60,000 nucleotides of DNA from Laetmonice hystrix (lineage: Eukaryota). Below are positions 27,543-59,291 of this stretch, piece after piece. Each line of letters opens with the position of its first letter. Within the stretch, counting starts at the first letter, position 1. Location: positions 14,882,001 through 14,942,000 of the forward strand of contig OZ249436.1 of NCBI GenBank assembly GCA_965235115.1, read 5' to 3'. Below the pieces are notes generated by a model. The model did no database searches. It saw nothing but the letters and a program-made list of their open reading frames with translations, and was not told the DNA's origin. The position numbers and the translations under genes were made by a program.

Positions 27543-30500
27543 TCACATGTTCAGAGTGCATCCCTGGCCCTTGACTAGAGCAAGTTTGGTGCTTGTTTTG
27601 CGTGCAGATTTCATCGGTGCCTTTCCTGCGTCCTTGGACTGGGGACAGTACTTGAGGGTGTGAGCATTGTCTCCACTGGCGCTACAGATAGGGCAGGTGT
27701 ATGCACGGAGCACGGGGCACATGATACAACCAGTGGCATCCTTCAGACGATGAGACGTATACACGACCTTCGACTCCCCGTTGTTACGACAGAAGACACA
27801 GATGAGCTCATGCCGTGATGAGTGCCGGATGTTTTGTTCACGAAGGAGGACCACCAGGGACTCCTTAGTCATCATATCCTCACCACTTGTCATTACTGGT
27901 CTGTGGGGTGAATGACATTCAATATAAAGTCACCAGTGGTATCAGGGCACTTCCCCCCTGGATATTTACCCCCCGGATATCAACCTCCGGACTTCTGCCC
28001 CCTAGGGCATCTGCCCCCCAGACATTCACACCCCCCCCCGATATTAGCCACCGTAGGACTTTTGCCCCCTAGGACATCTGCCCCCCAGACCACCACCCCC
28101 ACACATTTGCCACCGTAGGACTTTTGCCCCCCTAGGACATCTGCCCCTCAGACATTCACCGCCCAGACATTAACCCCCGTAGGACTTTTGCCCCCCCCCC
28201 CCCCGACATTCACCCCCGGACATTGCATCAATGTAACTCGGATATTCCCCACACACCTGTGCCTGCGCGATTAGAGTTAGGGTTAGGGTAGGGTACTAGG
28301 GTCCTAGAGGGGCAGAAGTACTACGGGGGTTAATGTCCGGGGGGTGAATGTCTGGGGGGCAGATGTCCTAGGGGGACAGAAGTCCTACGGGAGTTAATGT
28401 CTGGGGGTGAATGGGGGGCAGATCTCATAGGGGGGCAGAAGTCCTACGGGGGTTAATGTCCATGGGGTGAATGTCTGGGGGGCAGATGTCCTAGGGGGCA
28501 CAAGTCCTATGGGGGTGAATCCAAGAATTACCCATCCCAATATTCTTGGTGAATGTCTGGGGGGTGAATGTCTGGGGGGGGGGGCAGAAGTCCTATGGGG
28601 GTGGATGTCTGGGGATGAATGTCTGGGGGGGGGGGGCAGATGTCCTAGGGGGCAAATGTCCGGGGGGGGGCAGATGTACGGGGGGCAAATGCCCTAGAAT
28701 CGTCACCAGCAGAGTTGTCAGACTGCACAGACCAGCATAAACCCTAACCAAGACTTTCAAGGATCATTCAAATGTTCGAATAATACCCATCATGCAAGGG
28801 TCTCACTATAAAAGGGATAGCTATTACATTTTGTCCGTAGTATTTTTCCTTCTGTTGTACTTTAGATATAATTAGCTATGACAGAAACACCCGTTATTGA
28901 TAACTGCAGCACACATGAAAAATAGGACCATGAAAGTGGAAGGACATCTGGGCTTGGAGGTAGCGATACGTGCATAGAGACAAATTTTATATAACTTAAG
29001 ATCATTTTTCATTAAGGAATATTTTCTCATTCAGTTACTAAATAGTAATTAATGCATAATTGCATTATAATTCAATACCAATTATCAGGTTAATACCGAT
29101 TAACCGATATCAGTATACCGGCATGTGTCCAAGGCGGACCCAAAGATTCCTTTTCGCCCTACCTGAAAGCCTGCCATTTTTCTGCATCAGGAGTAGGGGG
29201 CCAGGTGTTTGCCTCCAGGACCTCATGTGGCAAACTCATCATTGGCTGGTTTTGCATTGGAGCACTTAAACCAAAGATAAAAATTACGTAAAATTTATTA
29301 TATAATTTTCAAGTGGCAACCTAGACTGTGATCAGTGTATTGCAGTCACTCATTGCGAATTTTCATGTTTAGTGCAATTCTTTTTTCCAAATTACAAAAT
29401 TTTGTACATCTAGAGGAAGGTGCCTGACACAAGAAAATACTGATGTCTGCTATTTGGGTTCATCCAGCTTGCATAATCAAGTAGTACAACCACTTGTGTA
29501 AGGGATAAGATACATCTTACTGGCCCAAGATGAATGCCTCTATATGGATTTGGGGTTGTCTGGTAAGGTGTCCAAGATGTCTTATTATCCACATTTAGTA
29601 CAGTAACTCCTTTTGACTTTTAAGCCAATAAAAGATATAATTCAGTGACACACTATAAAACAACAGACGCCCGGTTGTCTATAGCTTCACACAATGAATA
29701 ATACAGCAAAAATTGTCCATATAAGTTGATTTGATGGCAGCTGGTGGCACTTGGAGAACATGGCTGTTGGTCTCTTGCCACACGCACTTCATGACCTAAA
29801 ATGTCCAATTGCAATTCGAGTCTGTCTCTAAAGTATTCATTTTGTGTATATCCAACGAGACCAGACAGAACTGTTTGGTATAACACATCATATATTCACT
29901 GATTACATGATGTCAGTCGTCAAGTATTACCTACAAGAGTGAATGGCTCCTACTTATTGGTCATAAAAAGAATAAGATTGTGCGGGGAGAAAATAATAAA
30001 CATCAAAGTGAATCGGATCAAACACTCCTGCATCTAGTTTTGCTCACCTCAGTTTGAGAGCTTGCCATCGGGAGAGTCGACCAGAGCTGCCAACATCTGG
30101 CCATTCTGGCTCGGCAGGCACACTACGTTCATTGTCCCTGGGAGAAAAACCTGGTGGAATGCTGCTTGGTGCACTACTGGTGCTGTGCCGTCTGTGGGCC
30201 AATCCTTGGGTGAAGTTCTCTCCATCTACTGGTAGCGGATTGAGACTAGAGAAATAATACCCAAAGAAAAAAATAATTAAAGGTCATAGAAAAGTTCAAA
30301 CTATCAATATAAGGGTGTTCAGCATGAACAAGCTTGTTCCTACCTACAATCCTGTGATGGTCTGATCTTTAATAAAGGAATAATCAACTGAACTGTAGCT
30401 AGACATTCTCCCGCTGGCTTCGTCTGCTTGTCTGCCCTACTTGTCCACGAATTGTTATGTGGCTGCCAGGCGGAACGAACCACGCAGATTCCCGGCCAGA

Positions 30501-32928
30501 GGGCCGCTATTCACGTCCCACTGCAATCCCACTTTTACCAGAAACATGCCCATGATGTCACAGCTAAACCAATTCAAAGCAAGATGGCGACAGATTTAAC
30601 GACGATTTCAGAGAGGGTTGCAAACGATAGCTGCACACAAACTCTGTATTTGTTAAGAGAGAGAAAGGTGTCTGCTGTCACCGGTAAGAGTACAGGGGGG
30701 TGTTCCTCATCATGTCGTTAGCTTGTCGTATCGTTAACTCCAATGTATTTTCAATGGGGATTTTAACGCACGACGGGATAACGATAGATGAGGAACGCAC
30801 CCCTGAGTCAGTAGTGTAATGAGTCAGTCGTAGTGAGTGAGTGAGTGTCCGATGAAGCCAGCGAAGGATTGCCACGGGGTAACGCGTGTTGGATCTGTTG
30901 ATAACAGTCTAGCAGAAACAGGGGATATAGGGGCCGTTTCACTAAAAGCGACGGACTAGATCACCGAGATCGGAGACGGAGTTAATTTTCCACCCTTTGT
31001 TTATGTTTTAGCAGACTTGAAACACTTCCCGTAAAACTAAAACCAAGATTAGCTGGTGTTTGCGACGCCGCGTCATAGCTCTCACTGTCTCGTGGGAAAA
31101 TAGCGCATGACCCGAACGGTATTTTTAAAAGTCGCCGTAGACAGTGTTCCACTTATCGGTGCGACCTTAGACACTGCACATGGTGTTTCTGGTGTTCAAA
31201 GGTATGTTAGTGAGGAACTTTGCCTGCCTCTTTAAAAGTTTTATAAAGACGGTACCGGGTACTGGGCCCAGTTTCAGAAAGGTTAGGATGATCTTAACTT
31301 AAGCTCTGCTTAGCCTTTTAGGACCCCTGATTGGCTGGTTGAAGCTGAGCAGCAGTGGACCAGCCAATCAGGGGTCCTAAAAGGCTAAGCAGAGCTTAAG
31401 TCAAGATCATCCTAACCAAGTTTCTGAAACCGGGCCCAGGTCCTGCGATGGCCTAATAACATGTTCCTGTCCTATCAGGGAGGCCCCCATATGGCCCATA
31501 TCATGGAGGGGCCTAAGATAATAGGCTAGCGAAAAACAAGTCTTCGGAAAGGTGCCATTGAGTAAGCAAGGATCACTACCGTATTTTGATTTTGCACTGT
31601 CATGTTTTGCGTTCAGCATGAGCAAAACCCACTGGCGGATCCAGGGGAGGGGTTCAGGGGGTTCGAACCCCCCCCTAAAATTTTGCAGATACACACATTT
31701 TAACTTAACATTACAATTTAGAAGTTTTTTTTCTTTCAGTCGCAAGATAAAAACCACCTAAAAAAAATTTTTCATATGATTTCATCCTATAGCCAAAGTT
31801 GCTGTTGGATAAATTTAGGGAGGCCCTTTTGCCCTTGGTCACATTGGTCATTGAATAGCTTATTTTGTGCTCCAAAATGCATCTTTTGCCCTTGGTCACA
31901 TTGGTCATTGCATGAATAGCTTATTTTGTGCTCCAAAATGCACCTCGAATTTCAAAATTTTCCGGGGCATGCCCCGGACACCCCTAGGAAGGCTTCGCGC
32001 CTTCGGCGCTTGCAGACTTCGCGCCTTCAACGCTCGGACACTCACGGCTGTGTTACCCCTAAACACGTTGAACCCCCCCTAACGGAAAAAGCTGGATCCG
32101 CCCCTGAAACCAGTGCAAAATCTTGCGCTCTCTAGGCCCGCTACTAGTGCGACAGTCGAAGGAAAATGATATAATATTCTACACGTTGTATGATTCTAAC
32201 TTAGATCTATAGTATAATAGTATAGGCTATGGATGCGGTGGTGAAAGTTTGGAAATTTCCCAACTTGTTGCCAAACTCAATGTTATCCATGCAAGACTAT
32301 CAATTCAGCTTCGGTCTCAACAGTCTTTTTTCGCTCTTTGGTCTCACTATATGATCTATAGCAGCAGTTCAGTAGGCCTATAGAGAATCTACTAGGCCTA
32401 TGTAACTGTCTTTAGTGTCTATTACGTATTTACGATCCTAGTTTTACGCTAACCGCTAATTAACGACGTAGGGCCTGTGTTAGATGGAGTGATACTGATA
32501 CTAGTGATAGCTTACCTCGTTCTTGCAAGCTGTTTGAGATGTGCAATGGCGTCTCGTAGTCCTACAACTCGAATGATCTCAGACAGCTCCTCCAAGTTTT
32601 GCTGTGGTGAAACCTCGGGATTGGAAGCTAGACTCGCAAGAGACTGGTCACTGGAAGTAAAGCTGCCATCACTCCCGTCCGAACAAAGTCGATCTCGTTG
32701 TGAAAGCAAGGGCCTCGGGCTGGGGCTTGGGGCTGCCGCATGTGGAAGGTTCGACGCCGCCGCCGCCGCCGTGGCCGCAGGCTCGCGGATAAACAGCCTT
32801 TCGATTTCGTCTGCCAAATAGTTTGTTGGATAGGAAGCTTGTGTCAAAAGATCCATATAACTGCTTGTCTGGTCCTCTTGCGAAAGTAGTGGAGCCCTTG
32901 GCTGACTATCGCAGTCACTGAACATCAT
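27543..32928 (-). CDS. nanos: Nanos CCHC zinc-finger RNA-binding protein (322 aa)
   Basis: Exons 32928-32516, 30245-30048, 27900-27543 (GT-AG, phase 2/2, 969 nt, open); last exon has [53 protein letters not shown]. Zinc-finger exon is certain; upstream exons inferred from splice phase. Confidence 0.9.
27945..28697. mobile_element. Foldback-type repeat with long C-rich/G-rich modular inverted arms in nanos intron 2
   Basis: Left arm modules CCTAGGACATCTGCCCCCCAGACATTCACC and CGTAGGACTTTTGCCCC mirrored in right arm; centre has TTAGGGTTAGGG. Confidence 0.85.
31262..31439. mobile_element. Palindromic hairpin MITE with GGGCCC ends
   Basis: About 78-bp near-perfect arms (AGGATGATCTT.ACTTAAGCTCTGCTTAGCCTTTTAGGACCCCTGATTGGCTGGT and its reverse complement) around a short loop. 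Confidence 0.9.
31630..32106. mobile_element. Non-autonomous DNA element with GGCGGATCCAG inverted ends and 5-bp AAACC flanking duplication
   Basis: aaacc|CActGGCGGATCCAG ... CTGGATCCGCCccTG|aaacc; internal about 60-bp direct duplication at 31826-31943. Confidence 0.75.
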
Positions 32929-34021
32929 TTTTCACGATTCAACGTACGCCAGCCAGCTGAACGATCTTCTACCAACGACCCAAGGAAAAGCAAGTGTGGC
33001 GGTAAAGTGTCGGGGCTCTGCTTGAAGTGGCACCACGTGACTGGATGACCTACTAATAGACCGAGCCCTGCCGTGCGTTTAAATCCCCATTGAAAATACA
33101 TGTCGGAAGGGATGGGGACAAGTCCCTCTAAGTGTAGGATTTGATGGGGATGACCTCTTGAAGGATCTAACACTGATTAAACTTAGGCCTAAATTTTACT
33201 GTCGAACTAGCCGCCTAATAAAACGCTGTCAGAGCAATCCTCTAGCCTAATTAGACCTAGGCCTAGCCTATTTTTTTTTTTTATAGAGTCACGAGCAGGA
33301 CTCACCGACAGTCGACACTGCCCTTTTTCCTGTAGCCTAGGCCTAGGCAGGCCTACCTAGGCCGATACTACAGAGTGAGTAGGCCTAACCCCCCCCCCCC
33401 CCCCCAAAAAAAAAAACCCGTGTGCTTTAATTTTATAGTTGATCCACTCAGATACGACCATTTATAGAATAGACCTAGAGGATCTATAGTCAGAGTCTAT
33501 GGACCATTTCAAGCAGTGCACGCACTTTGAGTTTGAGAATCAAAAACTGGTTCTGTTCAATCCGACCGATATCATTTGAACTTATTTAGGCCCAACAAGG
33601 AACGGGCCTGATACCCGGCGAATGACTCATAACAGAGAACTGTACAGTTCTATGCTCATAGATCTAATAACGGAGACTTTTGAGTGGCAACTTGGGATTC
33701 TTTTGCCTCGCGAATTACGGCGGGTCGCCGAAAGTCGACCTGTTTACCACCCGACCGTGATATCTCAATTCCCATCGGTACTATTATATGGGCCTAGGCC
33801 TATAGGCCTAATTCATGGCAACTTAAAACCTACGAAACTTTTTCGGAAGTAGGGGCCTAAAGATCTATCACTAGGCCTATCCGGCCCTAGCCCTGACCTT
33901 ATCCCTAACCCTATAGACCTCACAAAAACATTCTTAGACTCCTCTATCCCTATCTCTATCCTTGGCTGACCGTAGGCCTACCCAAAAATTTCGTGGTGAA
34001 GTTAGGCCTACCATGAATTAA

Positions 34022-39780: not shown

Positions 39781-42700
39781 TTACAACAGGAGCATAGCAG
39801 AGACACCTGCCGTGAGTAGCAACGCCAGGGATCCCGACACGGACACTGCAGCATTCTGTCCCTGTGAATACATGACGTAATCTATGTAAGATCATTCGGT
39901 ATAGGCCTAATAGGCTATATGCCTATTTATAATAGCCTATAAAGGCCTAAAAAGGCGGGCCATGCTCATACTATTAGATTTCGATGATAGTGTACAAAAT
40001 ATTAGAATGATATTTTCAAGTGGCATTGACGTTTTGTTAGCTGTAACATTTTAGCTATATCCTTATAAGGTTAGACCTTAGCCTATACGTTGAAGCTTAT
40101 CATTATTTTCATCCGAATGTGTAAAAGAAAATATCGATCCAGTAGGCCTATTCAATAGGCATTACAAACATTTAGATAGGCCTACTCAATAACGTTACAC
40201 CGAATACTCACCTGAGTAGTGTTTGTTGCGGCTGCGGTTGTTGCTTCCATGGTGGTGATGGCAGCGTTGGTGACGGCGGCGTTGGTAACGGCGGCGTTAG
40301 TGACGGCGGCGTTGGTGGCGCCGTCAGCGGTGGCCGCGGCCGTTACAGAGTCAGTGACTGTGGGGACGACGGTACTCGTTGATCCCTCGCATCCAGCTGA
40401 AATTGCGGCAATGTGATAATAGGGAAAGACAGAATTTTTTCACCGATAGATGTCGCGCAAGTGCGAAAAGTCTAGGCCTGGTGCATTATGGGATATCATG
40501 GCGCGAACGTATGACGTATTAATGGCGGCCAGTCAGTGCACTTACGAGTGTTGGACGGTTGGAAGACTGAAGGCAGAGCTGTTAACTCGTCGGGCGAGCA
40601 CAAAAGGAAGGAAGCATGTCCTCATTGAAAGGTTAGTGTTCATTTTTCTACACCTTATTATTTTCATGAATGCGGTAAAGTATGTGAAATCAGTAGGTAA
40701 ATTACGTCACTCGGTCAACACTGGTCCACCTGCAGACTCGACCGAGGCGGCAGCCGCCCACGTGTTCGGCAGTCAGAGCCCCTCACCCCCTGTTTTGACA
40801 AGGCTGCAATCCTTTTCTGCCTCTTTGACTTTGTAAATCATTAATCTACCCACCCTCATCCTGGTAAACCGTAAAGCCTAGTATTTATGCCAAATTGAAA
40901 AGCCGTTAAAAAGAGTTAGTGAGGACGGCCTGTGACTGTCACTGATGACAGTGCTGTGTGGTCGCTGGGATGAGCTGCTCCCCTACGACGCAACGGCAGC
41001 GGGGGAAGATGCAGAACTTCTCAACCACGTTGACTGTTAAGTGTTGTGTTGACGTTGTTGCATTGTTGGTTTGGGGGAGGGATGGGGCGAAATTGTGGTC
41101 ACCGGTTATAAGCAAGGGTGGGCCAGGCATAGCTTAATTAAACAGGCGCGGATCCTAACACTAACAGTAACACAGTAGATCTGACTCTAGCCTATGATGC
41201 CGGAGTCTAACGTTAGTCAAAGATGGTCTAGTCGTAGAACTGATTATTTCTATGACTATGTAGCCTACAGGCTACACTACAGCTAGCTGTTATTTTGTAA
41301 TCTGCCATTCAAAGGAGGGGGGCATTTTAGATTGGGTAAATTCTTCCTCATCTATTAGAACTGTTTCAAAACTTATTACATGATTGGGTAACCCCCTCCC
41401 CCCTGAGCTTACGGCGTGTTTAGCATTGAAAATGTTGAGAATGTTGGACCACCCCTCAGATAGAACTCTAATTTTTTTCACAGGCTTGAATCGTATGATG
41501 CCCATGACAACTTCCGACAACCGGCACTTGAAGACCTCATTGAACCAGTGCCCTTTGAAGATTGGCCAACCACCAATTTCAAAAGTTTGACCAGTGACCA
41601 CAGGAGTCTGTTACCTCCAGTGACGAAAGAACTTATACAGGCATACTTCACAATGCGCCTAGCAACTGACAATATTTGTGCTAATGACATGCAGGCCCTA
41701 AAGAAAGGCAAAATTCTTTTGGATGGACAGAAAATAACGGCATGCAGTGCAAATTTTGATGAGAGTAACTATGTGTATTTCACAGGATTTACAAGTGCTG
41801 CAATGAAAAAGAAGGTATAGCATTTTAGCCTGTAATATTGATTTCGAGAGCATCTATTAAAAACTGTAGTATTGCAGTTAACAATTTTACAGGCATGAAT
41901 AACTATTATATTAAGACTCTTAAGAGATCGTTTCTTGATGGGTCATGAATTTACTTCCTTTAATGAAAAAATAAATGTTGCATAAATAATAAACTTTAAT
42001 CTATCAAAATCTAACTTTGGGGTTCCTATTTGGTTGAATTTGTCCCCAGTTAAAAAGTTAAGTTGTTGCTATAGATCTTTAAGGAGCAGGATCTATTTTA
42101 AACGGTCAGATTAATCATTAAGGGGCACACTGATGATAGGCAAGCTTATCAATTTTAATGAAAGAATTATAAACTGGTAGGAAAATTTCCTGACTCTTAT
42201 TTAAATTTCAGGTGTGTTACAACTTCAAAATTCGGGTTGACATGACTGGAGATATCATAAACACAGCGTGTGAATGTCCTGCAGGCAAAGGTCCGCATGG
42301 GACTTGCAAACATATAGCAGCAGTCTTGCTAATGCTTGAGCACTTTGTTCAGCATGGGGATAAACTCGTTCTGAGGAGTTGTACAGAAAGCCTGCAGACC
42401 TTCCACATGCCAAAGAAACCGTATACAGGTAATTTGAATAGAACAATTTCATAACGCAAATATAAAACATCATATCCCTTTAGAATCTGATACACAGTAA
42501 ATGCAGCATAAGTCAAATCTATGTAATTTAAATTATTGGACGATTCGAATAGATTTCCACAGAAGTTTATTATTTCCTTTGCATTTAAATTAAAAAAACA
42601 TCGCCTTAGTCTTTTTTGAAGTTGAATGATCGTCTAATTCAAGTCGATTCGGTTGTCCCTATGATCCAAAGTTATGCATTTTACTCTCACCATACTCAAA

Positions 42701-45700
42701 TCAGAGGTCAATGGACAAAAATCAACGGCGATTTTGGAAAATTTGGTTAACCCAATGACTAAGGATGTGTCTGCACCCACCCTACAGTTCATTGATATCA
42801 CCGCTCCAGTATTGGCTTGCTTGCGAGCCACCAACGCCTACTCAATTTTCAAATTAAGTATAGGCAAACAAAGAAAGGTTCTTAATTATATAAGGTACAT
42901 ACATGTACTTTTGACGATAATCTTGCAGCAAGAATAGAAGTTATTTTACTGTCTCTCATTCAGGTTCACCTATGAAGGCACAAAATATGAACAAGAGGAA
43001 AAGAACAGATGATCCCAGGCCCGCAAAGTATCGACAAATGGAAGGCTACAATGACTTCGTTAGAAGTGCTGTTATCAACTTTTGTTCTACCACTGGCCAG
43101 GATATCTCCATGCGCTTCCTGTATGAGAAAGCAGACATCCAACAAGCCGTTAAAGACCACGACTATCTTCAAGACCCATTCACTGAATATTGGGTTGATG
43201 AAGCACAAAAGGTGACAAAGAAAAAAACAGTTTATTCTTTAGGCCACACTTTTTTTATTGTTTGGTTTACGGGCACCCTGCAAAGTTACCCAAAGTACGG
43301 AGGGTGAAATAAAAATAAACTTCCTCCCGTAAAGAGACCGGGGAATGTCGAATGAGCTGGAAACAGATTTTGTTCAAAACATTGTAAATTATGCCTTGTA
43401 ACTATTGTAAGTGTTTCCAAGTTCCATTGAAATATCTTAGTTTTTGAGAAATATGGGATATATACATTGCTAGGTTTTGTGTGGCGAGTCATCTTCATTC
43501 TTGGATTATTTGACCTTTAGAATTTGCATGTCGAATACCCAATATCGTGAGAATGTCTTTTCTTTTATCATAATATGTCACAATATTTGACCCATTATTA
43601 AAAAATATGAGCAGTTGAGAAGTTTCTTATTTTGGATCCTTAATTTCGTTTCCTGTTTTATGAAAATAATTTTGCATATTCTGAATCAGAAGTTTTGTCG
43701 AATTACATATTCAGGTCAGTGATGAGGACATCCGACATATTGAACAAAGCACCAAAGGTCAGTCTCAGTGCAAGAAATGGCATGATGTCAGGCAATGGAG
43801 GATTACAGCATCAAAATTTGGAGAAGTCGCCCGAATAACCAGCAGGAGAAATAAGGCAAAACTGTGTGAGTCCATCGTCAATCCGAAGTCATTTAAATGT
43901 GCAGCCACCATGCATGGACTCAAGTTTGAAGCTACAGCTATAAAGAAATTTGAGCAAAAGTATAAGAAAACGGTGAAAAAATGTGGATTTACAGTATCAA
44001 AAGACAAGCCCTATCTGGGTTGTTCACCTGATGGCACTGTAGATGATGATGCGTGTGTTGAAGTCAAGTGCCCATTTGCTGGCAAGGACAGAATGATCTC
44101 CAATACAAAAGAGTTCCCTTGGCTAGAGCGTAAAAATGGAAAGTTACATCTAAAAAAAACCAGCAAATACTATGATCAAATCCAGGGGCAAATGTACATC
44201 ACTGCGAAAACAAAATGCTACTTTATTGTATTCACATTCCAAGACATGTTTGTGGAGGAAATAACCTATGATGAAGAATACTGCAAACTATGTCTCGTTC
44301 CAAAGTTGGAGGTCTTTTACCTCAAATATGTGAGGCCTTACATTGCAAGGCATTGCATATAATTGTCGTCAGTGGATAATGAAGTGTAAGAAAATGGTGT
44401 AATTCTGTCTGCCTTTTAGACATGGACATTGGGGGGAAAATGTCAGTTTTGTAAATGACCTGTATTACAACTTATTTTTCAGATTTTTGTAAACCAAATT
44501 TTTCATTTTTTTTTCGGGGGGGGGGGGGGGGGGGTCAAGGAGGAAATACTATGATCAAATAGAACATGTCATTTTGCATGAAAATTGTGAAAGTCAGCTT
44601 CCGAAGTACTTTAGATACCATTCTATACCACTTTCTGATAAACTGTCATTTTCTCCCCATTATGGCTCACAAATTCTAACATCGACGATCGTGTGATTCT
44701 AACCTGAGTATCTCAAAAAGGAGCATGGCAGTCCCTGTTTTTCCTGTACACGTGTACTCTGATTTATGCTAGTCTGTTGACAATTGAATTTCTGAAGTTG
44801 GTGATTCGATAACACAATGACACTATTTGAGTAGCAAGATCCCTATGTTTGGCATTGAGTCCATATTTCAACATTTTGAATGTCTTCCCAAGGCCTATCA
44901 CTCTTTCTACGTGTATCCTTTTCGATGCAATTCGACGGTCACGAATGACTGTTTCTGGTTCAAGCTGACTTTTACCTTTAAGCATGGTGGGTGTATTAAC
45001 TGTCACACCCTTGTTGGCAAATAGGTCCTGGACCATTATTCCCCTGTCAGCCATTATGGAATCGCCAGGTTCAAGTTTTTGTCCATTTACAAAGTCTGAT
45101 CTTTCGATTATTTGCCGGTCACTGGCAGCTCCTCCATAGCTGTCACTTATGAATGTTACCACTCCACGTGGACTGACTCCAATCATTGTTTTTAAGGTAT
45201 TTCGATGTTTGTATGTTGAAAACGTAGCACGCTGAATATTTACTTCTGTTGGCTTTGCAATGGGAATTTCAGTTGCGTCCAGAATGATGCGAGTGTTTTG
45301 AAATTGCTTTGCAAAGTTTTTTGGCATGGTCTGTTGAACTGTTTCTTTGGAGGCCCAAATATTGATTTCTTCAAGTTGGTAGTACATGAAAGTTATCCAG
45401 GTATTGACCAGTGTGTGCACAGTGGAGTCACTAACACAGAAAAGAATGCCTAATTCGTGGTCGTCCTTCGCTTGTCTTAGTTTAATCAGCGTCAAAAAAA
45501 GTTGGTCTATTGGCAAGAGTTTGTGGCATTTGGGTTCTAATTCATGTACTGCTGGTCCAAGAATATGAAAAAATAATCTGAAATGATCGTAATTGTCAAA
45601 CGATGTGTAGTATTTGATGTCTCTAGGAGAATCCTTGAAGAGGGTAATGGAAAATGGTGTGCGTGAATACTTAGGGAAGGGTACAGTTAGGAGGTCACAC

Positions 45701-48700
45701 TGGCAGAACATTTCAGAGCACTCTGATGTAGCATTGACACTTTTGTCACATGTATCGTTTTGCACTTCAGTTTCAAGCACATCGATTTGGTGATCTATGT
45801 CCCTCTGTACTCCATTTTGCAGACTATCTGTGTTAGTACAAGCTTGTTGCTTGTTTGATTGATCCCCACGGGATAAGTGCCTGGCTGCTCTCCTTTCTCC
45901 AGATACTGTGAGGGCAGCAGTGGAGACTTTAGGCATTTTTTGTGAGGGTACAGCAGTTGGACGTAGCCGTCTTCTGGTTCCTGGAATTTTTTACTTTGTT
46001 GTCAGTAGAAATCGAATTTAGGAGAAATGATTATCACTATAATATCAGAGTATTAAAGTCCTTTATGAAATTTCTTGTGTTATTGTAAATTATGCTTATT
46101 AAAGGGGCATGCTATGAAACACGTTTTTGAGGATTTCCGGAAATTATCCAACATGACCGTGTACTAGGGATTCAAGTAAATAATCCTACCACAGTATTTT
46201 GTCCTCCGACGTGTTTTCGCTGCGTATGCAGCACAAGTAGATTCTATACGACCAAACCTATAGATTTCTCCTGATAGCACATCTCCCGCCATAATTTGCT
46301 ATAGACAACCTCCCATCAACCCGTGTAATTGCATACTGTGTCACATCCTGCGTGTGCACTCTCTGCATGTGCTTAGCCACGTGCTTCGCTTAGTTGTAAA
46401 CAATTCAGCAGTTGCACTCGATCGTCCGGCATCAGAATGCCACCCAAAAAATATTTTACGAAATCGGCAGAAAAGCGGGCAAGGGAGCTTCATAAACTTC
46501 GATTTCTCACACAAAATGAAACTGATAAGTCTGTCTTTGTTTACCAAGCAATATTAATGAAGGATCTCTTTATGAAAACAGCAAAAGTTCTTTGAAATAC
46601 CGATTTTTCACGTTTCCTCATAATATGCCCCTTTAAAAGATGGCTGATAAATCTCTATATCCAAGGATTGATATTAACGGGGTCCTCAGATCTTAAGGCC
46701 CTAGATTTGAAATTTCTATCAATGGGACTTGCATTCTCTTTGTAAACCTTGAATGATTTCATGAAAAATATAACCGAATTTTTAAAACAGTTCATAATTA
46801 AAAAAAAAGAGTAAACATAACTAACTTTCAGAAAGACCGTCTCTAAAGATTTATAAACGCCTAAACGGCGGATCTAGATATAGGGGGGGGGGGGGGGCGG
46901 CATGTCATTTGGTGAAAGTTATACTAATTTATGTTTCACGAGTATCCCAGTTCTGCTTGACATCGATGAAGTGTGTCATGCTTTTGGACAGCAATGACAA
47001 CGGAATCATATCTTGACTTCACTCTGAGGGGTGGGGGTGCAGCAGTGCATGGTGTAGGCAGAACTAAGCTAAGGGGGGGGGGGGTCCAACCACAATTTTA
47101 GTCAGACTTCATTTATTTAGCTATTTCATTATCTATTAATTGGGGGAGGGGCAGGCTGGGGGGGGGGGGGCAATTTTTTACTTTTGCCCCGGGTGCCAGG
47201 AACCCTCGCTTCGCCACTGAGAGTGGGAGATAGATCTAGTCACTAGTGTCAACAAAAAGTCCAGGTAAGTAAGTAGGGCCTATGTTTATTGACTTTTGGG
47301 GGGGGGGGGTAGTTTTGATGACAACGAACGGCGTTGCCGTTGCAGGCCCGTACGGGGGGGGGGGGGGGGGGGGCTCGCACCTGAGGATACCCAGGCTCAG
47401 GCTACGGCTGTAGGCCCCACGAACTGAATACAAAAGATGGACCCCCCCCCCCCCCCCAAGGCCTAAGGAGTAAGGTACCGTACAGCCTACTACAGTACAG
47501 TAAGTTCTACACTACAGCTACAGGCCTGTGAAGCTGTGTTGGGAAATACCACGCCAAAATCCCCAAGCGGCCAAGCCGAGCAATGGCAATGTCAGTTTAC
47601 AAACGCGAACAGTATCACAGGCCACGACCACTCTAGACGAGTCGTGGTGCCCAAAGTGTTTTTTTAACCCATAAGAATATCTATGGGCCCTAATAGGCCT
47701 AGTCTATTCTGGTTTCATAACTATAGTCTACAGTCGCAGAGGGCGGCCGCCTAGGCTGCTGCACGCCGGGTTGTCATGTCGGAACTCCCACTGCCTGCTA
47801 CTGTACTGCTAGGCTACAGCCTCGCAAAAAAAAATGCATAGGCCCTAGGCCTAGATCTAATGTTATAGCCTATAGGCCTAGATAGGCTACGGTCTTTCTG
47901 TGTTTCTCAAAGTTTAAACAAACACCAAAAACACTTATTACATGAGAGTACACACCCTGAGAAGGAGTTAGATAGTCATCTGTTTTAAAATGGTCGTAGC
48001 AGACGACATCACTTGGCTGAGGCCGCCAAGGTCTGGTCGGTTTGCTACTGCCTCTTCTCACAGCGACGCACCACTTTAAACGAAGGTATCGCTCATTGGG
48101 GAATTTATGTCCCCCAATTTTGTTTGAACAACCAGGTACACAACAATATCCCGGCATTTTTCTGATCGCGTTTTTTCGACACTGACACACTGACAGATCT
48201 TTGTTTACACTAGACCCTAGGCCTAGATTATACCGAACGGCCTTGCGCACAGTGACCGTCACAATGCCTACGCTAGACTTTTCGCACTTGCGCGCCACCT
48301 ACCGTTTCAAATTCTGTCTTCCCCTATTTTCGGTCTTTTCAGTGAGGAATAGGGGATAATGCCAGCTAAAAATATGTGCAAGGGAAGGTCCAAGGGTAAT
48401 AATTATTCTCTGTCAGCCCTTTTTAATGTTCCTTTTAAAAAGAACACTTTCCCTGAATTACCTGGGGGGCTGAACCCCTGCCCTTTTTTGGTATGTCTGC
48501 ACAGTATGTACGAGATATTAACTTGTGAACGAGCAGACATTAATCTTGCATAGGTCCCTATACACACCAGGGGAGAAAAGACTGTGTCCATAGTTAACCC
48601 CACATTCCCCCCACCCCCTCAAAAAAGCTCAGGCCCAAATATCGCATCATATACAGTTGATATCTAATTTTGGACTCGTCCACAGCGGACATTATGTTCA

Positions 48701-53789: not shown

Positions 53790-54613
53790 TTACAATAGGC
53801 TCATAGCAGCGACACCTGCTGTAAGAAGCAACGCCAGGGACCCCGACACGGACGCTGCGGCATTTTGTCCCTGCAAACATAATACAATTATGCTATAAAA
53901 ACAATAATAATTGTAAACTTAAAGTTAGTATTAGTAAGTTATCTTCTTTCTTTGCTGATTTCACACAAAAATTCGACAAAACCATGATAAATCTGATTTT
54001 GGAGCCCACAGAAACCGGCGATAAGGGACCCCCCGGCCTCGAGGCCCGCTACATACTCCCAATAATACACTTGTCCTAGATAGGCCTGCTCACCTGAGTA
54101 GTGTTTGTTGCGGCTGCGGTTGTTGCTTCCATGGTGGTGACGGCAGCGTTGGTGACGGCGGCGTTGGTGACGGCGGCGTTGGTGGCGCCGTCAGCGGTGG
54201 CGCCGTCAGCGGTGGCCGCAGCCGTTACAGCGTCAGTGACCGTGGGGACGACGGTACTTGTTGAGCCCTCGCATCCGGCTGAAATTTTGAAGGTAACAAT
54301 ATATTTGACCCCATGCATTCAAATCATGTGAAGGGAATAAGAAGTGTGCGTGGGACCAGATTGTGAGAGTGATTGCCTTTTCTTCATAATATCCACTTGC
54401 TGGGTATAAAAGGATAAAAATGATGCAAAAGTATCGATTTATTACAGAAGCTATCGGGAGAAGGGACAAGTTGAATATAACCTGCAGATCTGCTTCTTCG
54501 GGAGCTCAAATAATACTCTCAACCAATATATTCTCAAGTTCTAGGACAAGGAACTTCTTCTTACCGAAGTAAGCGATCAGGGAAATGGCAACGAGTGCAA
54601 TAACGGACTTCAT
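53790..54613 (-). CDS. Small Thr/Ala-rich GPI-anchored mucin-like protein, paralog B (104 aa)
   Basis: Exons 54613-54565 (MKSVIALVAISLIAYF), 54278-54094, 53870-53790 (GQNAAASVSGSLALLLTAGVAAMSLL*); non-coding exon donor near 54934, TATA near 54988. Confidence 0.88.
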
Positions 54614-58217: not shown

Positions 58218-59291
58218 TTACAACCGGAGCATAGCAGCGAGACCTGTCGTAAGAAGCAACGCCAGGGACCCTGACACGGATACTGCGGCGTTTTGTCCCT
58301 GAAAATATAAATACGTATTAAGATGAAATGAAATGTATCATACAACGACTTGTTCTTTGAGGCCGTCGGAAATAATGTAAATGAATGCACAATTTAGGCT
58401 GGAACTACTGAATTGTCATGAGAGGAGGCTATTTGAATTTGGTTGAATTAAGCTCCAAGCATCTTGATGCTGGGATGGATTACGATTTGGCAGGGGTTGA
58501 GCGTTAAGTGCTGAACCCACCAAGGCGATTCCCCTTGCGACGCCCATGCGATTTTGACATCACACTTTTATTTTACTGTAATTTTGAGATTAAAGGATGG
58601 AACCCATTTCCTGAAGCGAGAAGGCCAGCCAGGAAAAAATTCTGAGTGAAATTCACCATTAAATCACAAACCGCATGGCCGTCGCAAATGGAATCGCCTT
58701 GGGGGGTTCAGCACTTTATTTAAACAAATTCGTGAAAGTCGATATCACCGTGCATTCTTTCCCTTTCCTCATCCCTCATATCTGAGGACTCTCCTGCATG
58801 CATGCATGGTGACATAGGCACCGCACACTTCTATCGACTGTATTGGTACGTTATCATACTAGACAAGTCTACTCACCTGAGTAGTGTTTGTTGCGGCTGC
58901 GGTTGTTGCTTCCATGGTGGTGACGGCAGCGTTGGTTACAGCAGCGTTGGTGACGGCGGCGTTGGTAACGGCGGCGTTGGTGGCGCCGTCAGCGGTGGCC
59001 GCGGCTGTTACAGCGTCAGTGACCGTGGGGACGACGGTACTCGTTGACCCCTCGCATCCAGCTGAATAACATATTCTTGAATCAATCATGGGAAGGCGAA
59101 CAGGAATTTCTGGCCCTTAATGGGGAAACTATACTGATGACGTAGTATCTAATCCGTAGTTATACGTAGCGATCCGTATTTAAGATACATGTACAATGTA
59201 TCTATAAAGACGATGTAGCCTAAGAAACTTAATCCTCCTTACCGAAGTAGGCGACGAGGGAGATGGCAATCAGGGCAGCCACGGACTTCAT
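58218..59291 (-). CDS. Small Thr/Ala-rich GPI-anchored mucin-like protein, paralog C (104 aa)
   Basis: Exons 59291-59243 (MKSVAALIAISLVAYF), 59061-58877, 58298-58218 (GQNAAVSVSGSLALLLTTGLAAMLRL*); non-coding exon donor near 59698, TATA near 59752. Confidence 0.88.
58506..58716. mobile_element. Short MITE with about 45-bp imperfect inverted repeats in paralog C intron
   Basis: AAGTGCTGAACCCaCCAAGGCGATTCC..TTGCGACG ... CGTCGCAA..GGAATCGCCTTGGgGGGTTCAGCACTT. Confidence 0.8.

What the first reader, a model, noticed from the sequence alone, without database searches (positions are those of the whole stretch)
40421..48325. Complete two-gene DNA transposon pairing a THAP-DDE transposase with a SAP-SWIM-YqaJ exonuclease
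Seen: matching inverted ends, AT duplication, and two convergent genes whose 2 and 5 exons splice into uninterrupted 472-aa and 525-aa frames with all catalytic motifs (DDE triad; PD-ExK nuclease). Known: ISL2EU elements of the PIF/Harbinger-related group carry a THAP-containing transposase plus a YqaJ exonuclease and duplicate AT, so the class is not new, but I know of no established function for the nuclease. Inference: this is a potentially active cut-and-paste system with its own phage-recombinase-type end-processing enzyme.
Basis: partly seen in the sequence, partly recalled or inferred. Interest (0 to 1): 0.8.

Follow-up and report, generated by a model that had tools for sequence, protein, structure and literature searches.

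The report
Intact, recently mobile ISL2EU transposon
This is a complete copy of an already described two-gene animal jumping gene (ISL2EU) that is missing from the same spot in another DNA sample, and its second gene encodes a predicted DNA-end-chewing enzyme that likely helps process the breaks left by jumping, a role that remains untested.

Summary
Observation confirmed. 40421-48325 is a full-length ISL2EU element: inverted ends, AT duplication, and convergent THAP-HTH-DDE transposase (472 aa) and SAP-SWIM-YqaJ nuclease (517-525 aa) genes. Relatives support the splice model: same intron sites, or read-through. No RNA run was available.

The genome holds at least 13 copies. Three are full-length, near-identical and intact in both frames; nine share one internal deletion. 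Flanks are AAT/ATT in 11 of 12. The predicted empty site appears in three DNA runs of one sample. The window copy alone carries a 530-bp TTAA MITE.

In this genome 88 of 92 YqaJ hits lie beside a DDE gene. A folded homologue gives SAP, a ZSWIM8-like SWIM domain and a lambda-exonuclease core; catalytic residues are kept in 56-57 of 58 relatives. No annealing-protein partner was found, so this is not a phage-type recombinase.

Class and gene pair are published (Han 2015), with the nuclease's function stated as unknown; the scan noted such elements before in other genomes. Best guess (0.4): it resects the donor break, favouring copy-back repair. New member of a known kind and a good test substrate; interest 0.32.

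The parts
40421..48325 (.). Whole ISL2EU element, 7905 bp (about 7370 bp without the nested MITE)
   Evidence: empty-site joint 40418>48326 skipping 7907 bp
40418..40420 (.). Left target flank: A plus the AT duplication (40419-40420)
48326..48328 (.). Right target flank: AT duplication (48326-48327) plus T
40421..40475 (+). Left terminal inverted repeat, imperfect, about 55 bp; includes a 22-bp block that is perfect between the ends (likely THAP-binding site, inferred)
48273..48325 (-). Right terminal inverted repeat, 53 bp
40498..40631 (+). Nuclease exon 1, SAP domain (start at 40498 or 40522)
   Evidence: same donor site in L046
41484..41814 (+). Nuclease exon 2, first part of the ZSWIM8-like alpha/beta domain
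42212..42428 (+). Nuclease exon 3, SWIM zinc finger (C175, C177, C187, H189)
42964..43211 (+). Nuclease exon 4, linker and helices with conserved D292-H293-x-Y295
43715..44362 (+). Nuclease exon 5, YqaJ/lambda-exonuclease core (W332, R336, S343, E382, S414, D416, E426, K428, Q465, Q467)
44764..45980 (-). Transposase exon 2: end of THAP, HTH_Tnp_4, DDE_Tnp_4 (D302, D379, E426)
47956..48157 (-). Transposase exon 1, THAP zinc finger
46099..46636 (.). Nested 530-bp MITE (46103-46632) between TTAA copies, in the transposase intron; present only in the window copy; TTAA and purine-purine ends fit a non-autonomous Kolobok (inferred)
   Evidence: Kolobok features from PMC9587614
41941..45931 (.). Segment (3991 bp) missing from the nine non-autonomous copies; 2-nt overlap at the joint

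Best explanation
This is an intact ISL2EU transposon with near-identical copies elsewhere in the genome and an empty allele at this site, whose THAP-DDE transposase likely cuts and pastes it into AATT targets and whose second protein, predicted to be an active 5'-to-3' exonuclease, likely resects the chromosome break left behind so that the element would be copied back from the sister chromatid. Shown: ends, duplication, target rule, empty allele, copy set, open frames, tight pairing of the two genes, domain order, conserved catalytic residues. Inferred from family knowledge: THAP binds the ends; the DDE core cleaves and integrates, leaving short sticky donor ends as proposed for mPing; the nuclease acts like lambda exonuclease. 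Speculative: SAP holds the DNA, the SWIM domain is a protein scaffold, the substrate is the donor break, and resection diverts repair from precise end-joining (which erases the element) to homologous gap repair (which restores it, a net gain). Identity and recent mobility: about 0.95. The donor-resection role: about 0.4.
For: Copies, flanks and intact frames. Empty allele in 3 of 3 runs of one sample. Pairing: 88 of 92 YqaJ hits within 10 kb of a DDE hit, chance about 0.4% each; 28 of 31 metagenome loci with 1.5 kb or more downstream carry the nuclease on the opposite strand. Catalytic positions kept among 58 long homologues: E382 57, D416 56, E426 57, K428 56; W332 58, R336 54, S343 57; E382, D416, E426, K428 align to lambda E85, D119, E129, K131. 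A homologue's model (pLDDT 90) matches lambda exonuclease best (Z 18.9, rmsd 3.1, 199 residues) ahead of EBV alkaline nuclease (Z 14.1). Lambda exonuclease resects 5' strands to give 3' overhangs (PMC6393309). In the sister group, donor sites are repaired mainly by precise end-joining (PMC4561436). The transposase has its own THAP domain, so the partner is not needed as the DNA-binding subunit that Harbinger's ORF1 is (PMC2836001).
Against: No activity, expression or binding data. Copy number is low (13 found, 3 full-length), which is not what an efficient amplifier would suggest. Animal cells have their own resection enzymes (own knowledge). The empty allele is clean, so it is either the pre-insertion state or a precise excision; it shows no resection. 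The one shared deletion is a single event and fits several repair routes. The folds are of relatives (P0185, about 32% identical; L072), not of the window's spliced protein. Han 2015 Table S2 lists two Hydra families with a transposase and no second ORF, and 31 of 119 DDE hits here have no YqaJ hit within 10 kb (many may be other Harbinger-like groups or fragments, not checked). All three runs are one sample, possibly related to the assembly.
Confidence: 0.4

Rival explanations
1. The nuclease is an obligatory part of the transposition chemistry: it trims the non-transferred strand or the overhangs and flaps on the excised element or at the new insertion, so transposition fails without it.
For: Near-universal co-retention with the transposase; Harbinger relatives need both proteins (PMC2836001); Kolobok lineages independently carry lambda-like and DEDDh exonucleases, the latter proposed to act on intermediates (PMC9587614).
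Against: A processive lambda-type enzyme would tend to destroy a free element end (own knowledge); mPing moves with no nuclease partner; clean AT duplications in 11 of 12 copies need only a staggered cut.
Confidence: 0.3
2. The protein is mainly a scaffold or loader (SAP for DNA, SWIM for proteins) like Harbinger's ORF1, and catalysis is secondary.
For: The SWIM-containing domain matches residues 110-214 of ZSWIM8 (Z 9.8 and 10.5, rmsd 2.5 and 2.1), where SWIM organises a protein assembly (PMC13083262). An unchecked scan note reports a nuclease-dead partner in Trichoplax.
Against: Catalytic residues are kept in 56-57 of 58 homologues.
Confidence: 0.1
3. The nuclease clears stray DNA or RNA (unintegrated element copies, or host defence RNAs), in the manner of herpesvirus alkaline nucleases.
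For: Viral_alk_exo match; EBV and KSHV nucleases appear in the fold search.
Against: Lambda and LHK exonucleases score clearly higher (Z 18.9, 18.2 against 14.1); SAP points to chromatin DNA.
Confidence: 0.1
4. The nuclease supports a circle or rolling-circle route, as lambda Red does, giving concatemers that are then inserted.
For: Three sister YqaJ-DDE families in this genome form head-to-tail arrays of whole elements (8+, 3 and 2 units) whose junctions are not the plain AT expected from double insertion; 0 of 37 piggyBac and 0 of 6 hAT hits were in such arrays by eye.
Against: The family in question has no tandem copy among 12; three events against none in 43 hits is too few; tandems form in most transposon types with no nuclease (PMC5932611); no annealing protein is encoded.
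Confidence: 0.08

Closest known systems
ISL2EU group of the PHIS (PIF/Harbinger-ISL2EU-Spy) superfamily, including Repbase IS4EU-1_BF and IS4EU-2_DR (Han 2014 PMC4122938; Han 2015 PMC4482050)
   Same: A|AT|T target, THAP-HTH-DDE transposase, second ORF with YqaJ, animal host; protein lengths match Table S2 rows such as 475/515 aa and 426/512 aa.
   Different: Ends begin AGGG rather than the usual GG; longer than the 4840-bp average because of introns; SAP and SWIM domains of ORF2 are not mentioned in the papers read (they may be in Repbase entries, which could not be searched).
PIF/Harbinger (mPing/Ping/Pong, Harbinger3_DR)
   Same: DDE_Tnp_4 core, two genes, AT-rich target.
   Different: Partner is Myb/SANT, duplication is 3 bp TWA, transposase lacks THAP.
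Lambda exonuclease / LHK-Exo (Red-type SynExo systems)
   Same: Best fold match and aligned catalytic residues.
   Different: Fused to SAP and SWIM; no annealing protein in the element; trimer formation not tested.
KolobokE (PMC9587614)
   Same: [quoted passage not shown]
   Different: [quoted passage not shown]

Membership tests
ISL2EU | AT duplication within an A|AT|T target, confirmed by an empty site | tested here: met
   11 of 12 left flanks AAT, 12 of 12 right flanks ATT; empty allele skips 7907 bp = element + 2
ISL2EU | Transposase with THAP, HTH and DDE domains | tested here: met
   Pfam PF05485, PF13613, PF13359; spliced alignment to seven THAP-bearing homologues
ISL2EU | Second ORF with a YqaJ exonuclease domain | tested here: met
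   PF09588, E 4e-18
ISL2EU | Terminal inverted repeats of 6-259 bp, usually beginning GG | tested here: met
   About 55 bp; begin AGGG, an exception to a 'usually' rule, also seen at the right end of the closest sister family in this genome
ISL2EU | Transposase falls in the ISL2EU clade of a DDE tree with reference sequences | not tested
   No Repbase reference sequences were available; no tree built
ISL2EU | Identity to an already named Repbase or Dfam family | not testable with these tools
   Repbase and Dfam not held; best protein matches are 52% (nuclease exon) and 67-69% (transposase core)
PIF/Harbinger | 3-bp TWA duplication and Myb/SANT second ORF | tested here: not met
   Duplication is 2 bp; second ORF is SAP-SWIM-YqaJ
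Spy | No duplication, single ORF | tested here: not met
Lambda-Red-type SynExo recombinase | Lambda-exonuclease fold and catalytic residues | tested here: met
   (fold from a homologue)
Lambda-Red-type SynExo recombinase | Paired single-strand annealing protein | tested here: not met
   All long frames in the element belong to the two genes; a small, many-exon third gene was not excluded
Lambda-Red-type SynExo recombinase | Ring-shaped trimer with processive 5'-to-3' activity | not tested
   No complex prediction of the nuclease alone; needs biochemistry

The most novel reading that the evidence does not exclude
ISL2EU elements carry their own break-resection machine, a SAP-SWIM-lambda-exonuclease fusion that takes over the choice of repair pathway at the excision site, turning cut-and-paste into net copying and sometimes producing circles and tandem arrays: a transposon that encodes the host-repair step of its own amplification.
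Probability: 0.3. Interest if true: 0.72.

Novelty: new member of a known kind. Interest (0 to 1): 0.32.

Why it matters
The class is known, but Han 2015 states that the function of the second ORF is unknown. This family is unusually convenient for answering that: natural intact genes (no reconstruction needed), defined ends and target, natural non-autonomous derivatives and a presence/absence site. If the nuclease steers donor repair, it would give a concrete answer to how a cut-and-paste element gains copies, and a eukaryote-adapted lambda-type exonuclease with a clean AATT-targeting transposase could be useful as tools.

Tried and rejected
RNA support: no RNA holder listed; this is no evidence on expression. 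Filled allele in the runs: no listed contig bridges 48325/48326 in the element-bearing form (3 records not shown, contigs show presence only), so zygosity is not claimed. Binding of transposase and nuclease: the complex job was not folded and gave no verdict; binding is open. Viral contigs: 294 pattern matches, none a transposase relative. Other transposase splice pairs (479, 470, 471 aa) were set aside because the 472-aa form aligns without a gap across the THAP C-terminal box of homologues; I did not align the other three. A longer duplication was rejected: the empty allele lacks exactly element + 2 bp. End search in 16 metagenome loci was mostly noise; L076 gave a clear AAT|GG pair. The C2 36.16/36.18 Mb pair is a larger duplication of about 17 kb, not counted as an element array. 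Tandem-array enrichment against piggyBac and hAT: too few events. ZSWIM7/SWS1 did not appear in the fold searches, which does not exclude a relation. A recalled id for the lambda exonuclease-DNA paper was not held, so the roles of the 5'-phosphate pocket residues are recalled, not read. Not found in print: SAP or SWIM in ISL2EU ORF2 (searches; term look-ups) and ISL2EU arrays (searches; listings only).
Full report
Observation. The element runs 40421-48325. Its ends are imperfect inverted repeats of about 55 bp, 84% alike, with AT on both sides inside AAT and ATT. Five plus-strand exons (40498-40631, 41484-41814, 42212-42428, 42964-43211, 43715-44362; all introns GT..AG) give 525 aa, or 517 aa from the ATG at 40522; two minus-strand exons (47956-48157, 44764-45980) give 472 aa. 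Pfam on the single exons found THAP, HTH_Tnp_4 and DDE_Tnp_4 in one gene, and SAP (23.4 bits, under the 23.9 cut-off), SWIM, YqaJ and Viral_alk_exo in the other; 2 of the 7 stretches scanned had no match.

Splice model. No RNA run was listed, so I tested by homology. The transposase junction aligns without a gap to seven THAP-bearing homologues, and nuclease junctions 2-4 fall in ungapped stretches of the oyster and scallop proteins. Of ten related loci examined, L046 has GT..AG at all four nuclease intron positions in the same phases; L040 and a sister family in this genome at junctions 2-4; L039 and L071 at 3-4; L042 and L055 read straight through junctions 2-4; L067 fits in part (one donor is GC), and two more distant families fit poorly. 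L072 carries SAP joined to the rest without introns, though with a break after 298 aa.

Copies and mobility. The left end finds 12 copies, each with a right end; a thirteenth right end lies on C5, interrupted by a large insertion; both searches scored 24 candidates, so these are lower bounds. Three copies are full-length, over 99.7% identical across the first 5.7 kb, with both frames open and at most two amino-acid differences per protein. Nine share a 3991-bp deletion that removes most of both genes. Over 943 clean columns in 11 copies (L029 left out, anchor not found), full-length copies differ by 0-1 bases, deleted copies by 1-9 from each other and 19-26 from the full-length ones, so the deleted form spread in trans, slightly earlier. 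Flanks are AAT in 11 of 12 and ATT in 12 of 12. It may be the pre-insertion state or a precise excision. Only the window copy has a 530-bp TTAA-flanked MITE in the transposase intron, very abundant in the runs.

The gene pair. In this genome 88 of 92 YqaJ-exon hits lie within 10 kb of one of 119 DDE hits (80 convergent, 8 divergent; chance about 0.4% per hit); 31 DDE hits have no such neighbour (hits, not loci, and array units count singly). Of 80 metagenome loci kept from 117, 31 have 1.5 kb or more downstream of the transposase and 28 of these show the nuclease, on the opposite strand. The pairing is therefore a family trait.

The nuclease. Among 58 homologues of 400-580 aa taken from the 150 listed, the SWIM ligands are kept in 56-57 and E382, D416, E426 and K428 in 56-57; these four align to lambda exonuclease E85, D119, E129 and K131 (numbering counted from the alignment; roles recalled, apart from the K131A structure title). 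The spliced window protein could not be folded, so I folded relatives. P0185 (505 aa, about 32% identical; pLDDT 90) gives SAP at 1-44, a domain at 74-183 matching ZSWIM8 110-214 (Z 9.8, rmsd 2.5, 99 residues), and a core matching lambda exonuclease (Z 18.9, rmsd 3.1, 199) and LHK-Exo (18.2) ahead of EBV alkaline nuclease (14.1). The N-terminal half of L072 repeats the ZSWIM8 match (Z 10.5, rmsd 2.1). A shared fold shows no function.

How it most likely works. Shown: ends, target, copies, empty site, open frames, pairing, domains, conserved residues. Inferred: the transposase binds the ends through THAP and cuts and pastes into AATT. In the sister group, mPing excision is proposed to leave duplication-derived 5' overhangs that end-joining repairs precisely (PMC4561436), which removes the element from the donor. 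Lambda exonuclease resects 5' strands to leave 3' overhangs (PMC6393309), the substrate of homologous repair. I therefore favour resection of the donor break followed by copy-back (0.4). Against it: low copy number, host resection enzymes, a clean empty allele, and no direct data. An obligatory role in the transposition chemistry is close behind (0.3); scaffold, clean-up and circle routes are less likely (0.1, 0.1, 0.08). No annealing protein was found in the element, so 'phage recombinase' fits only half.

Side result. Three sister YqaJ-DDE families form head-to-tail arrays of whole elements: eight units plus a truncated ninth on C1 with eight junctions where an intact right end meets a left end lacking 5 bases; three units on C11 with a 3-base spacer; two on C2 with a 4-base spacer. 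None has the plain AT spacer of a double insertion. Controls (0 of 37 piggyBac, 0 of 6 hAT hits, judged by eye) are too small, tandems are common in most transposon types (PMC5932611), and the family in question has none; an earlier scan note covers the C1 array.

Comparison with what is known. Han 2015 defines ISL2EU by the A|AT|T target, a THAP-HTH-DDE transposase and a YqaJ second ORF, lists 12 potentially active families among 25, and says the second ORF's function is unknown. All sequence features I could test are met; the tree and the Repbase/Dfam comparison were not done. SAP and SWIM in this protein were not found in the searches named under Tried and rejected, but Repbase Reports and subscription journals are not held, and the scan itself has noted SWIM-YqaJ partners in other genomes. 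Papers seen: PMC4482050, first of four parts, passages and supplement search rows; PMC9179366, PMC4122938, PMC9587614, PMC4561436, PMC2836001, PMC13083262, PMC6393309, PMC5932611, passages only; others, search listings only. Figures such as Han's duplication model (Fig. S2) were not seen.

Verdict. A real, intact, recently mobile new family member of a known kind. It adds an empty allele, a conserved SAP-SWIM-exonuclease architecture and a ready test system, but no new mechanism is shown. Interest 0.32.

Noticed in passing
G000:C1:26.03-26.09 Mb (L117-L123); C11:22.36-22.38 Mb (L128-L130); C2:37.88-37.90 Mb (L133-L134): Head-to-tail arrays of whole YqaJ-DDE elements from three sister families, with abutted ends joined by a 5-base loss, a 3-base spacer and a 4-base spacer.
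   Followed up: partly
window 46099-46636: 530-bp TTAA-flanked MITE, likely non-autonomous Kolobok, with summed contig depth thousands of times that of the flanks.
   Followed up: partly
window 40214-40398 (minus); paralogues near 54089-54286 and 58870-59066: The element sits in an intron about 22 bases from the apparent acceptor of a Thr/Ala-rich exon of one of three tandem copies of a small, apparently secreted-protein gene; it could affect splicing.
   Followed up: partly
window 27549-27929 (minus), probable first exon near 32515-32931: A nanos gene (zf-nanos, E 2e-25) lies about 7.5 kb from the element.
   Followed up: no
G000 hits at C7:23.90, C1:69.83, C11:22.36, C4:32.20, C11:28.14 Mb: Eight YqaJ-DDE pairs are divergent rather than convergent, pointing to a second arrangement within the group.
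   Followed up: no
G000 C30:14.35, C11:29.28, C2:47.67, C8:29.90 Mb: Four YqaJ hits have no DDE hit within 10 kb; possible solo, domesticated or other-element nucleases.
   Followed up: no
window 47000-48230 and L028-L036: The transposase intron is full of poly-G/poly-C runs and short duplications that vary between copies, and several deleted copies carry further insertions.
   Followed up: no
L032 left end: One copy has lost its left AAT flank and first base, suggesting a later deletion or rearrangement at that end.
   Followed up: no
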